NCBI RefSeq assembly: GCF_009914755.1
Contig: NC_060947.1
Length of the DNA stretch: 64,000 nt
Strand: one strand, 5' to 3'
Source of the DNA: the human T2T-CHM13v2.0 reference genome, Homo sapiens
A model generated the notes under the pieces. That model saw only the letters and a program-made list of their open reading frames with translations, did not search any database and was not told the origin of the DNA. A program made the position numbers and the translations under genes. Below are positions 53,701 through 58,052 of this stretch, piece after piece (the first letter of the stretch is position 1; each line of letters begins with the position of its first letter).

Positions 53701-56700
53701 ATACAGTGGGCTCTGCCCAGCCCCAAGCTGTCGCTAATTCCCAGAGTGAGACCTTGCTTGGTGCCAGGAATAAGGTCAAGGGCAATACCATTGCTGTGCC
53801 TAAAGCAGGGACTGGGGCAGGCACAAGGCACTCTGCCCAGCCTCAGATTGTGGCCGGTTCCCAGGGTGAGACCTTGCCTGGGGCAAGGGACAAGTCTATG
53901 TCCACTTCTGAGGCAGAAGCCACAGCAGAAGATGAGGCCTATGCAAAGCCTGAGGCTGAGGCCATGCCCACTTCTGAGAGTGAGGGTGGGTCAGGCACTC
54001 AAGCCTGCAGAAAGACTCAGCCTAACATCCATGACTACTACTGGAATGGGATTGGTGTTGAAGACTGGATTGCTGCTGAGCGGTGGATCAAATTTAGGTT
54101 TCAGACCATGGATGGAGACTGGGAAAATAGCGTGTCCTGGGCTGATGATGAGAATGAAGCCAGTATTGGGTCCTGGAGTGGGGCTAGTGATAAGGCTGGG
54201 ATTATTCGGTCTTGGGCTGTGGCTTGTGATGAGACCAGTGTTAAGTCCTGGGCTGGGGCCAGGGCTGAGAATGTGGTTGGTATTGGGACTTGGGCTAGAG
54301 CTGGGGAGCAGGCCAGTGGAGGGCTCTGGGCTGGGGGTCAGACTAGTGAGGGGACCTGGGCTGGGGACAAGGCCAGTGGAGGAGCCTGGACTGGGGCTGA
54401 GAACCAGGCCAGTGGGGGGTCTTGGGCTCTCGCTGGGAATCAGGCCATTGGAGAGCTTTGGGCTGCGGGTCAGGCCAGTGATGGGTCCTGGCCTGGGGGA
54501 CAGGCCAGTGGGGTGTCCTGGGTTGGGGAAGAGGCCATTGGAGGGTCCTGGACTGGGGCTGAGAACCAAGCCAGTGAAGGGTCTTGGGCTGGAGCTGGGG
54601 CTGGGAATATGAGTAGTGTTTCATACTGGGCTGGGGTTGTGGATCAGGCCGGTGGAGGGTCCTGGGCTGGGACTAGTGATCAATCTGGTGGTGGGTCCAA
54701 GCCTAGATTTGAGGATCAAGCCAGTGGAGAAGGGTCCTGGGCTGGGGCTGGTGGCCAGGCTAGTGGAGGGTCAATGTTGGGGCCTGAGGACCAGTCCAGT
54801 GGAAGGTCTTGGGCTGACACTGCAGACCAAGCCAGTGGAGGGTCTAGGCTGGGCCACGTAGATCAGTCCAGTGGTGGGGCCTGGGCTGGGACACTTGATC
54901 AGTCTGGTGGTGGGTCCAAGCCTAGATTTGAAAATCAGACCACAGAAGAAGGGTCTTGGGCTGGGGCTGGTGGCCAGGCTGGTGGAGGGTCCAAGGTGGG
55001 GCCTGAAGACCAGTCCAGTGGAAGGTCATGGGCTAACTCTGGGGACCAAATCAGTGGAGGATTCTTAGTTGGGATTGTGGACCAGGCCAATGGAGGGTCC
55101 TGGACTGGGGCTGGGCATCCAGCTAGTGTTGGGCCAAAGCCTATATTTGAGGATCAGGTCAGTGGCAGAGGGTCCTGGGCTGATGCCAGGGAGCAGGTTG
55201 TTGGAGATTCTAGGCTGGGGCTTAGGGACCAGTCTAGTGGAGATTCCTGGGCTGGCACTGGGGACCAGGCCAGTGGATGGTTCTGTGTTTGCCCTGGGAG
55301 TCAGACGAATGGAGGGTCTTGGGGTGGGGCTAGTGGCCAGGATGTTGGAGGGTCTAGGCCAGGGCCCACGAACCAGTCCAGTGCTGGGTCCTGGGATAGC
55401 CCTGGGAGTCAGGTCAGTGGAAGCTGCTGGACTGGGGCTGGGGCTGTGGATCAGGCTGGTGGTTGTTCCAAACCTGGATTTGAGGATCAGGCCATTGGAG
55501 GGGGGTTCTGGCCTGGTGCTGGGGACCAGACTGGTGGAGGCTCCAGGCCAGGGTCTGAGGATCAGTCCAGTGGAATAGGTTCCTGGGGTGTGGCTGGTGG
55601 CCAGGTCCTTGGGGGAGCTAGGCCGGGGCCTGCAGACCAGTCCAGTGGTGGGTCCTGGGCTGGCACTGGGAATCAGTCCAGTGGAAGGTCCTGGATTGGG
55701 CCTGGGGATCAGGCTGTTGACTGTTCCAAGCCTGAATTTGAGGATCAGGCTTGTGGAGGAGGCTCCTGGGCTGGTGCTGGGAGCCAAGCCAGTGGAGAAT
55801 CCTGGGCTGGATCTAGGCCTGGGAATGAGGCCATTGGAGGATCTAGGATGGGATCTGAGGACCAGGCCACTGGAGGATCCTGGGCTAGATCTGAGGACCA
55901 GGCCAGTGGAAGGTTCCAGGTCAGTTTTGAGGTGGAGGCCAATGAAGGATTCTGGTTTGGGCCTGGAGCTGAGGCCGTTATAGGGTCTTGGTGCTGGACA
56001 GAGGAAAAAGCTGATATTGTGTCCAGGCCTGATGATAAAGATGAGGCCACTACTGCATCCAGATCAGGGGCTGGGGAAGAGGCCATGATTTGTTCTAGGA
56101 TTGAGGCTGAGAACAAGGCTAGTAGTGGCTCCTGGATTAGATCTGAGGAGGTGGCTTATATGGGCTCCTGTGTAGGGGCTGAGGCTGGGGCTGGGGCTGA
56201 GGCTGGGGCTGGGGTTGGGGCTGGGGTTGGGGCTGGGGCTGGGGCTGAGGCTGAGGCTGGGGCTGAGGCTGGGGCTGGGGCTGGGGCTGAGGCTGGAGCT
56301 GGGACTGAGGCTGGGGCTGGGGCTGGGGCTGGGGCTGAGGCTGGGGCTGGGGCTGGGGCTGGGGCTGGGACTGAGGCTGGGGCTGGGGCTGAGGCTGGGG
56401 CTGGGACTGAGGCTGGGGCTGGGACTGAGGCTGGGGCTGGGGCTGAGGTTGGGGCTGGGACTGAGGCTGGGGCTAGGGCTGGGGCTGAGGCTGGGGCTAG
56501 GGCTGAGGCTGAGGTTGGGGCTGGGGCTGGGGCTGAGGCTGGGGCTGAGGCTCGGGCTGAGGCTGGGGCTGGGGCTGAGGCTGGGGCTGGGGCTGGGGCT
56601 GAGGCTGGGGCTGAGGCTCGGGCTGAGGCTGGGGCTGGGGCTGAGGCTGGGGCTGGGGCTGGGGCTGAGGCTGGGGCTGAGGCTGGGGCTGGGGCTGGGG

Positions 56701-58052
56701 CTGGGCCTGGGACTGAGTCTGGGGCTGGGGTTTGGTCCTGGGATGGAGATGCAACCACTGTAGAGTCTAGGCTTGGGGCTGGGGAAGAGGCTGGTGTAGA
56801 GTCCTGGACCTTGGCTAGGAATGTGGGAGAGGATGAGCTAAGTAGAGAGTCCAGCCCTGATATTGAGGAGATCAGTTTAAGGTCTTTGTTTTGGGCTGAG
56901 AGTGAGAACAGTAATACGTTCAGATCTAAGAGTGGGAAAGATGCCAGTTTTGAGTCTGGAGCTGGGGATAACACCAGCATCAAGGATAAGTTTGAGGCTG
57001 CTGGTGGAGTTGATATAGGGTCTTGGTTCTGTGCTGGTAATGAAAACACAAGTGAGGACAAATCTGCACCTAAGGCTAAAGCCAAAAAGTCATCTGAGTC
57101 AAGAGGCATATATCCGTACATGGTCCCTGGGGCAGGAATGGGGTCATGGGATGGAGCCATGATCTGGTCGGAAACTAAGTTTGCACATCAAAGTGAGGCC
57201 AGCTTCCCAGTTGAAGATGAGTCCAGAAAACAAACCAGGACTGGGGAAAAAACTCGGCCCTGGTCTTGCCGCTGTAAACACGAAGCTAATATGGATCCAC
57301 GAGATCTTGAAAAACTCATTTGCATGATTGAGATGACTGAAGATCCTTCTGTTCATGAAATAGCCAATAATGCTTTATATAACAGTGCTGATTATTCTTA
57401 TTCTCATGAAGTTGTTCGTAATGTAGGTGGAATTTCAGTTATTGAAAGCTTGCTCAATAATCCCTACCCCAGTGTTAGGCAGAAGGCTTTAAATGCACTG
57501 AATAATATCTCAGTGGCTGCTGAAAACCATAGGAAGGTTAAAACTTACTTAAACCAAGTATGTGAAGACACTGTCACCTATCCCTTGAATTCAAATGTGC
57601 AGTTGGCTGGACTAAGGTTGATAAGGCATCTGACTATTACCAGTGAATATCAGCATATGGTTACAAATTATATTTCAGAATTTCTTCGTTTGTTAACGGT
57701 GGGAAGTGGAGAAACTAAAGACCATGTTTTGGGAATGCTTTTGAATTTCTCTAAAAATCCATCTATGACAAAAGACTTGCTCATTGCCAATGCACCAACA
57801 TCACTGATTAACATTTTTAGCAAGAAAGAGACAAAGGAGAATATTCTTAATGCTCTTTCACTATTTGAAAATATAAATTACCATTTTAAAAGAAGAGCAA
57901 AAGCATTTACCCAGGACAAATTCAGTAAAAATTCCCTTTATTTCCTATTCCAACGACCTAAAGCATGTGCCAAGAAACTTCGAGCCTTAGCAGCAGAATG
58001 CAATGACCCTGAGGTGAAAGAGAGAGTTGAGCTATTAATAAGTAAACTCTGA
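50754..58052 (+). CDS. ARMCX4: Armadillo repeat-containing X-linked protein 4 (ARMCX/GASP family), 2432 aa, in one terminal exon starting at 50608
   Basis: Family N-terminus [27 protein letters not shown] (TM anchor); SW-rich GASP-like repeats; C-terminal armadillo-like domain ([15 protein letters not shown]...[10 protein letters not shown]...[18 protein letters not shown]...). Acceptor ccacttctag at 50607. Confidence 0.97.
51500..53890 (+). repeat. Coding 120-bp (40-aa) tandem repeat
   Basis: Motif ccagggtgag...ttgcctggtgccaagaataaggtc recurs at exact 120-nt spacing from 52541 to 53861 (12 units), with more diverged units upstream. Confidence 0.95.
54170..55990 (+). repeat. Coding GSWAG..DQASG repeat region (~12-aa units)
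   Basis: Dozens of caggccagtggagggtcctgggct-like units. Confidence 0.9.
56175..56702 (+). repeat. Coding hexamer VNTR (GGGGCT/GAGGCT)x88 encoding GA/EA dipeptides
   Basis: 528 nt, in frame; variants GGGACT, GGGGTT, GAGGTT, AGGGCT, CGGGCT. Confidence 0.97.

What the first reader, a model, noticed from the sequence alone, without database searches (positions are those of the whole stretch)
56175..56702. Long coding hexanucleotide VNTR in ARMCX4, apparently an expanded allele or a reference collapse
Seen: 88 in-frame hexamers (GGGGCT=GA, GAGGCT=EA, plus GT/GV/EV/RA variants) give a 176-aa low-complexity spacer, and the CDS from MGRIQ is 2432 aa. Rare CGGGCT units recur 66 nt apart (56553, 56619), which points to block duplication. 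From memory, unverified: the curated human ARMCX4 protein is about 2290 aa. If that is right, this allele is ~142 aa (~71 hexamers) longer. Inference: a large protein-length polymorphism, or a collapsed repeat in older assemblies, that short reads would miss.
Basis: partly seen in the sequence, partly recalled or inferred. Interest (0 to 1): 0.8.

Follow-up and report, generated by a model that had tools for sequence, protein, structure and literature searches.

The report
ARMCX4 coding hexamer repeat, long allele
The T2T-CHM13 copy of the X-linked gene ARMCX4 carries 88 in-frame six-base repeats where the curated reference transcript has 17, a real but ordinary protein-length variant that the current annotation hides as a false intron.

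Summary
Window 56175-56702 is 88 in-frame hexamers (49 GGGGCT, 25 GAGGCT, 14 variants of 6 types). They lie in one open frame, 50754-58052, of 2432 aa.

The RefSeq coding parts sum to 2290 aa. The annotated "intron" 56202-56627 is 426 nt, which is 71 hexamers or 142 aa. It is an alignment gap, not an intron:
- It has 22 equivalent placements, and only the one chosen ends in AG. It starts with GC.
- It has no pyrimidine tract (0.45, against 0.60-0.90 in the five real GT-AG introns).

So CHM13 has 88 units and the reference transcript an implied 17. All 14 variant units lie inside the gap, so the long array looks old and the short allele looks like a one-step deletion.

Two elephant-shrew orthologues have only 2-4 units at this site.

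A 2025 long-read study of 65 people (HGSVC3) names ARMCX4 among four constrained genes with in-frame coding tandem-repeat variants. That makes this a known kind of variation already named in print.

Allele frequencies, and whether the short reference allele is natural or a clone artefact, could not be tested here. Interest is low to moderate.

The parts
50754..58052 (+). ARMCX4 open reading frame in CHM13, uninterrupted, 2432 aa plus stop
   Evidence: the ORF listing under table 1. Translation has a single terminal stop. Pfam Arm_2 near the C-terminus.
56175..56702 (+). Array of 88 in-frame hexamers (Gly-Ala / Glu-Ala dipeptides and variants), residues 1808-1983
56703..56730 (+). Degenerate tail of the array (GGGCCT GGGACT GAGTCT GGGGCT GGGGTT)
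   Evidence: TRF extends the array to 56730. Units listed.
56202..56627 (+). 426 nt (71 hexamers) absent from RefSeq NM_001256155.3 and drawn as an intron in the CHM13 annotation. This is an alignment gap. It can be slid to any start from 56194 to 56215 with the same product.
   Evidence: Hub annotation: 22 equivalent placements, GC..AG only at the chosen one, pyrimidine fraction 0.45 against 0.60-0.90 for five real introns.
56516..56684 (+). Higher-order 66-nt (11-unit) block, about 2.6 exact copies, carrying the CGGGCT units
   Evidence: Exact 103-nt run at shift 66. 0 of 500 unit-order shuffles reach it.
57294..57953 (+). Armadillo-like Arm_2 domain (residues 2181-2400), downstream of the array
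   Evidence: Pfam PF04826, E 4.9e-79, 265 bits, cut-off 20.4

Best explanation
This is a coding hexanucleotide tandem repeat in the single large coding exon of ARMCX4. CHM13 carries a long allele of 88 units. The curated transcript NM_001256155.3 and its 2290-aa protein carry an implied 17-unit allele. The RefSeq 'intron' 56202-56627 on CHM13 is the gap left when the short transcript was aligned to the long genome, so the CHM13 gene really encodes 2432 aa.

Every unit is 6 nt, so any gain or loss of units keeps the frame. The encoded Gly/Ala/Glu stretch acts as a length-tolerant spacer between the repetitive N-terminal two thirds of the protein and the C-terminal Arm_2 domain (inferred).

Length changes arise by slippage or unequal exchange between misaligned units and multi-unit blocks. 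The G-rich coding strand can form slipped hairpins and G-quadruplex-type structures, which probably favours these events (inferred).

The long, variant-rich array is probably the older form in humans. The 17-unit reference form is probably a single 426-nt deletion between identical 21-nt stretches (inferred).
For: Shown directly:
- 88 in-frame units and a 2432-aa open frame.
- The RefSeq coding parts give 2290 aa, and the gap is 426 nt = 71 units.
- The gap has 22 equivalent placements (starts 56194-56215). None gives GT-AG, and only the annotated one ends in AG, with GC at its start. The upstream pyrimidine fraction is 0.45. The five other introns of the same transcript in this window are all GT-AG, with fractions 0.60-0.90.
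- Removing the gap leaves 17 units, all GGGGCT (12) or GAGGCT (5). All 14 of 14 variant units lie inside the gap.
- Block duplication: an exact 103-nt match at shift 66, reached by 0 of 500 unit-order shuffles.
- Strand asymmetry: G makes up 315 of 528 bases. There are 3 quadruplex-type motifs with loops up to 7 nt and 14 with loops up to 12 nt, against 0 and 4 in the other 6772 nt of the coding sequence.
- The G-rich strand folds at -70.2 kcal/mol, z = -6.4, and 0 of 100 shuffles fold as well. The C-rich strand has z = +0.8, and 77 of 100 shuffles fold as well.
- Length tolerance: two elephant-shrew ARMCX4 orthologues have only [10 protein letters not shown] and AGAEAR at the same site. The conserved anchors YMGSC and [13 protein letters not shown] are 59 and 55 residues apart there, 233 in CHM13, and 91 implied for RefSeq.

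Literature: HGSVC3 (PMC12350169 section 14, read; preprint PMC11451754, passage read) lists ARMCX4 among four loss-of-function-constrained genes whose coding tandem-repeat unit variants relative to GRCh38 are in frame.
Against: - I could not see GRCh38, the RefSeq mRNA sequence, any other human haplotype or any ape. The 17-unit composition is implied by the annotated exon ends and assumes an otherwise exact alignment.
- The HGSVC3 text does not say which ARMCX4 repeat varies. The exon also holds 120-nt and 36/72/219-nt arrays. The paper gives no sizes or frequencies, and the held supplement has no ARMCX4 row.
- The statement that selected (MANE) transcripts match GRCh38 exactly is recalled, not tested.
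- The spacer function, the role of DNA structure in instability, and the direction of change (deletion from a long ancestor) are inferences.
- The comparison with other species rests on only 2 orthologues, both afrotherian.
Confidence: 0.88

Rival explanations
1. The short 17-unit form in GRCh38, RefSeq and UniProt is not a natural allele. It would be a deletion that arose in the bacterial clone used for the reference, or an assembly collapse, so that every person carries a long array.
For: The difference is a single clean deletion between 21-nt identical stretches (22 equivalent placements), the kind of event that G-rich direct repeats undergo in clones. The G-rich strand is strongly structure-prone. 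All variant units are missing from the short form.
Against: The same signature is expected from natural slippage or unequal exchange. HGSVC3 describes the ARMCX4 variants as polymorphic tandem-repeat unit variants. However, the preprint's definition (more than 1 of 65 samples) would also include an insertion present in everyone. This rival was not testable here.
Confidence: 0.2
2. 56202-56627 is a real GC-AG intron inside the coding exon (an 'exitron') that is spliced out to give the 2290-aa protein.
For: The annotated ends are GC..AG, and the length is a multiple of 3.
Against: - The ends are one of 22 equivalent placements inside a repeat. The aligner's choice is the only one ending in AG, and none is GT-AG.
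- The pyrimidine fraction before the supposed acceptor is 0.45, against 0.60-0.90 for five real introns of the same transcript.
- The length is exactly 71 repeat units.
- The same GAG|GCTGGG and GCTGAG|GCT junctions recur all along the array, so a unique splice would be unexplained.
- Recalled, not tested: genes of this X-linked family carry the coding region in one exon.
Confidence: 0.02
3. The 88-unit array is an error of the CHM13 assembly, or a private somatic expansion of the CHM13 cell line.
For: None from my calls. It remains possible in principle for any single assembly.
Against: The array is only 528-556 nt long, far shorter than the long reads used for such assemblies (general knowledge). 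It holds 14 variant units of 6 types in an ordered higher-order pattern, which an artefactual expansion of a 17-unit array made of two unit types would not create. HGSVC3 independently reports coding repeat-unit variants in this gene.
Confidence: 0.03

Closest known systems
In-frame coding tandem-repeat length polymorphisms found by long-read assemblies (HGSVC3 lists MUC5B, ACAN, FMN2 and ARMCX4)
   Same: Tandem units whose length is a multiple of 3, lying inside a coding exon. Copy number differs between a haplotype and the reference and the frame is kept. The gene is reported as loss-of-function constrained. Short reads see it poorly.
   Different: The unit here is only 6 nt, at the border between microsatellite and minisatellite. 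It has 12/18/66-nt higher-order structure. The paper gives no unit, size or frequency for ARMCX4, so identity with this array is likely but not shown.
G-rich hypervariable minisatellites of the human genome
   Same: G-rich strand bias, interspersed variant units and block duplications. At least 51 other places in the same genome match this array at 66-96% identity, several of them within a few Mb of a contig end. Three of the seven other loci fetched (L002, L003, L006) have related high-scoring arrays by TRF, with units such as CTCAGC and CCTCAGCCTCAC. L007 has unrelated 33/132-nt arrays, and L004, L005 and L008 had no array scoring at least 300.
   Different: This array is translated and sits in an X-linked gene. 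The PRDM9 13-mer motif (recalled) is absent on both strands. The other loci are look-alike repeats, not paralogues.
C9orf72 GGGGCC hexanucleotide expansion and its poly-Gly-Ala product
   Same: A G-rich hexamer that differs by one base (GGGGCT), has quadruplex-type potential and gives Gly-Ala dipeptides in one frame.
   Different: Here the repeat is part of a normal open reading frame. It is interrupted about every 2-4 units by GAGGCT (Glu-Ala). The longest pure GGGGCT run is 4 units. No disease link or non-ATG translation is implied. The C9orf72 properties are recalled, not tested.

Membership tests
Coding tandem repeat with length variation (coding VNTR/STR) | Head-to-tail copies of a short unit, well beyond chance | tested here: met
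   TRF score 797, 46.3 copies of period 12, 86% matches. 88 hexamers counted.
Coding tandem repeat with length variation (coding VNTR/STR) | Unit length a multiple of 3 and the array inside an open, annotated coding frame | tested here: met
   Frame offset 0 from the ATG at 50754. ORF of 2432 aa with no internal stop. RefSeq coding parts flank the array (hub annotation).
Coding tandem repeat with length variation (coding VNTR/STR) | Copy number differs between haplotypes | tested here: met
   CHM13 has 88 units and the RefSeq transcript an implied 17, from the 426-nt gap. HGSVC3 text supports this. Population frequencies were not testable.
Coding tandem repeat with length variation (coding VNTR/STR) | The short reference allele exists in living people and is not a clone artefact | not testable with these tools
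   No other human assemblies or reads are held. The held HGSVC3 supplement has no ARMCX4 row.
Spliceosomal intron (exitron) at 56202-56627 | Unique GT-AG or GC-AG boundaries | tested here: not met
   22 equivalent placements, none GT-AG, and one GC-AG, which is the one the aligner chose.
Spliceosomal intron (exitron) at 56202-56627 | Pyrimidine tract before the acceptor | tested here: not met
   0.45 pyrimidine at -23..-4, against 0.60, 0.70, 0.70, 0.90 and 0.90 in the five real introns.
ARMCX/GASP family protein | C-terminal Arm_2 (PF04826) domain | tested here: met
   E 4.9e-79, residues 2181-2400, full profile 2-221 of 221. Orthologues named ARMCX4 / GASP1-like.
C9orf72-type pathogenic hexanucleotide expansion | Long uninterrupted G-rich hexamer tract outside a normal reading frame | tested here: not met
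   Longest pure GGGGCT run is 4 units. The array is in the main ORF.

The most novel reading that the evidence does not exclude
The long, variant-rich array (about 88 units) may be the common and ancestral human form. The 2290-aa ARMCX4 in GRCh38, MANE/RefSeq and UniProt would then be a minority deletion allele or a clone artefact. In that case the canonical size of this X-linked, loss-of-function-constrained protein is wrong by 142 aa in the main databases. The T2T annotation would hide the true product behind a false intron. Men would be hemizygous for arrays ranging roughly five-fold in length, which short-read constraint metrics never saw.
Probability: 0.45. Interest if true: 0.45.

Novelty: already known. 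Interest (0 to 1): 0.3.

Why it matters
The practical point concerns annotation. On T2T-CHM13 the RefSeq model of ARMCX4 reports a 7-exon transcript and a 2290-aa protein, while the genome encodes one uninterrupted 2432-aa frame. Anyone who takes exon structure or protein sequence from that annotation loses 142 residues and gains a spurious GC-AG intron.

Biologically, the array shows that this linker tolerates a very wide range of lengths: 2-4 units in elephant shrews, 17 in the reference and 88 in CHM13. The gene itself is reported as intolerant to loss of function. As the HGSVC3 authors note, constraint scores from short reads are blind in such segments.

It is otherwise an ordinary in-frame repeat polymorphism with no known phenotype.

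Tried and rejected
- Real intron: rejected on splice-signal and placement grounds.
- PRDM9 hotspot 13-mer (motif recalled): 0 matches on either strand.
- Likeness to C9orf72 poly-Gly-Ala: rejected as a mechanism because the longest pure run is 4 units.
- Paralogous arrays in other X-linked family genes: the own-genome DNA search gave 52 matches. Only the query itself was on contig C23. The seven other loci fetched lie on other contigs. Three of them (L002, L003, L006) hold related G-rich minisatellites by TRF.
- Comparative data: two protein searches returned only 2 ARMCX4 orthologues, both elephant shrews. In one search these were 2 of 6 hits among 7999 scored candidates, and the other 4 were low-complexity or unrelated. 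In one search they were 2 of 2 hits among 6236 candidates. No primate, rodent or other mammal was available, so the history of the array within primates could not be traced.
- Literature: 8 full-text searches paired ARMCX4 with: tandem repeat; VNTR; T2T-CHM13; in-frame and insertion; long-read and structural variant; expansion and repeat; GPRASP and single exon; pangenome. Only the HGSVC3 paper and its preprint bear on the repeat.
- Other papers checked: PMC4053787 (passage read) holds a mouse missense SNP only. PMC11610602 (passage read) holds a rearrangement breakpoint only. PMC8666550 (passages read) is a general review with no mention of the array. PMC5142107 was seen in a listing only.
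- HGSVC3 supplement: the workbook is held cut. It has no row for ARMCX4, for chrX-10149 or chrX-9993 coordinates, or for the remembered Ensembl id. Its table of contents lists no per-gene coding-variant table.
- Audano et al. 2019: an attempt to read it failed. My remembered PMC id was a different paper, and the DOI is not held.
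Full report
**What is in the sequence.**
Window 56175-56702 reads as 88 consecutive hexamers with no indel. The units are 49 GGGGCT, 25 GAGGCT, 5 GGGACT, 2 GGGGTT, 2 GAGGTT, 2 AGGGCT, 2 CGGGCT and 1 GGAGCT. Tandem Repeats Finder calls the array at 56175-56730 with period 12 (46.3 copies, 86% matches, score 797) and period 18. The last 28 nt are a degenerate tail.

The array is in frame with the ATG at 50754. The frame stays open to 58052, giving 2432 aa. The array is residues 1808-1983 and reads as Gly-Ala and Glu-Ala dipeptides with some Gly-Thr, Gly-Val, Glu-Val and Arg-Ala. 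Pfam places the Arm_2 domain at residues 2181-2400 (E 4.9e-79). The array therefore lies between the repetitive N-terminal part of the protein and the conserved C-terminal domain.

**Higher-order structure.**
Two other rare units also recur at 66 nt: GGGACT at 56301/56367 and GAGGTT at 56445/56511. Self-identity is highest at shift 66 (0.898, against 0.85-0.90 for the other multiples of 6, the next highest being 0.897 at shift 54). An exact 103-nt match at shift 66 starts at 56516. None of 500 shuffles of unit order reached 103 nt (mean 50.8, maximum 95). Duplication of an 11-unit block is therefore shown.

**The length difference and the false intron.**
The annotation gives coding parts 50754-56201 and 56628-58052, which sum to 2290 aa. 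The interval between them is 426 nt = 71 hexamers = 142 aa.

I tested whether 56202-56627 could be an intron:
- The deletion can start at any of 22 positions (56194-56215) and give the same product.
- None of these placements is GT-AG.
- Only the annotated placement ends in AG, and it begins with GC.
- The 20 nt before the supposed acceptor are 45% pyrimidine.
- The five other introns of the same transcript in this window are all GT-AG, with 60-90% pyrimidine.

I conclude that the "intron" is the gap a splice-aware aligner leaves when a short transcript is laid on a longer genome. CHM13 encodes the full 2432 aa. The curated transcript, taken at the annotated exon ends, has 17 units (12 GGGGCT, 5 GAGGCT).

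**Direction of change (inference).**
All 14 of 14 variant units lie within the 426 nt missing from the transcript. The short form can be derived from the long one by a single deletion between two stretches identical over 21 nt. The reverse path would need at least six different point changes, followed by duplication of several of them. I therefore think the long, variant-rich array is old, and that the reference form is a derived deletion. That deletion could be natural or could have arisen in the reference clone. This is not shown. It needs other human haplotypes and apes.

**Comparative evidence.**
The protein database returned only two ARMCX4 orthologues, both elephant shrews: P0001 (2011 aa) and P0002 (1971 aa). 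At the same site, between the conserved anchors YMGSC and [13 protein letters not shown], they have only [10 protein letters not shown] and AGAEAR. The anchor distances are 59 and 55 residues, against 233 in CHM13 and 91 implied for RefSeq. A Gly-Ala/Glu-Ala seed of 2-4 units is therefore old in placental mammals. It grew greatly on the lineage to humans, and the length of this segment is weakly constrained. No other mammal was available to the tools.

**Why it is unstable (inference supported by computation).**
- The coding strand is 60% G (315 of 528 bases), with GC skew 0.57.
- The array holds 3 quadruplex-type motifs with loops up to 7 nt and 14 with loops up to 12 nt. The other 6772 nt of the coding sequence hold 0 and 4.
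- As single-stranded DNA the G-rich strand folds at -70.2 kcal/mol (z = -6.4, 0 of 100 shuffles as good), in many alternative registers.
- The C-rich strand does not fold better than shuffles (z = +0.8).
- The same genome holds at least 51 other places that match this array at 66-96% identity, several within a few Mb of a contig end and none on the X contig. Of the seven other loci fetched, three hold related high-scoring minisatellites by TRF.

The array therefore belongs to the ordinary class of G-rich, slippage-prone minisatellite-like repeats. It happens to be translated.

**What is known.**
Eight full-text searches found one relevant work, the HGSVC3 paper (PMC12350169; I read section 14). 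It intersected GRCh38-based structural variants from 65 people with coding exons. [quoted passage not shown]

The preprint (PMC11451754, passage read) defines polymorphic as present in more than 1 of 65 samples. It adds that short-read constraint estimates may be miscalibrated in such repeats. Neither text says which ARMCX4 repeat varies, by how much or how often. The supplement held here is cut and has no ARMCX4 row. The supplementary PDF was too large to read and may bear on this.

The 426-nt difference is above the usual 50-bp threshold for a structural variant. It is the only gap in the transcript alignment across the coding exon, so it is very likely among the variants that paper refers to.

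**Verdict.**
The finding is a real five-fold length difference in a coding repeat between CHM13 and the curated transcript, and the current CHM13 annotation hides it as a spurious GC-AG intron. It is a known kind of variation, already named in print for this gene, with no known phenotype.

Three things remain open:
- the allele spectrum in people;
- whether the 17-unit reference form is natural;
- which form is ancestral.

Noticed in passing
window 52518-53881 and 54285-55920: The same coding exon holds other tandem arrays. One is a 120-nt unit (40 aa) in 11.4 copies at 80% matches. The others are nested 36/72/75/132/219-nt repeats. The transcript alignment shows no gap there, so CHM13 and the reference agree in copy number. 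These arrays could still vary in other people. The elephant-shrew proteins show the same repeat types by eye.
   Followed up: partly
window 56156-57160, minus strand: An ATG-started antisense open frame of 334 aa overlaps the array. The reverse complement of the hexamers (AGCCCC/AGCCTC) has no stop in any frame, so this is most likely a by-product of the repeat rather than a gene.
   Followed up: no
G000 contigs C5:1.70 Mb, C16:1.25 Mb, C19:1.10 Mb, C10:1.13 Mb, C1:3.20 Mb, C22:51.06 Mb, C13:113.17 Mb and others: At least 51 other places in the same genome match the array at 66-96% identity, several near contig ends. C1:3.2035-3.2065 Mb gives nine overlapping matches, which suggests a long array there. 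TRF on seven fetched loci found related high-scoring arrays in three of them, with units such as CTCAGC and CCTCAGCCTCAC.
   Followed up: partly
ARMCX4 residues 916-938 (window about 53499-53567): A sub-threshold Pfam match to V-SNARE_C (25.4 bits, cut-off 27.1, 23 residues) lies inside the 40-aa repeat region. It is probably chance.
   Followed up: no
protein database: Only two ARMCX4 orthologues (elephant shrews) were returned for a gene present across placental mammals. Closer mammals seem not to be held, which limits any comparative work on human windows with these tools.
   Followed up: no
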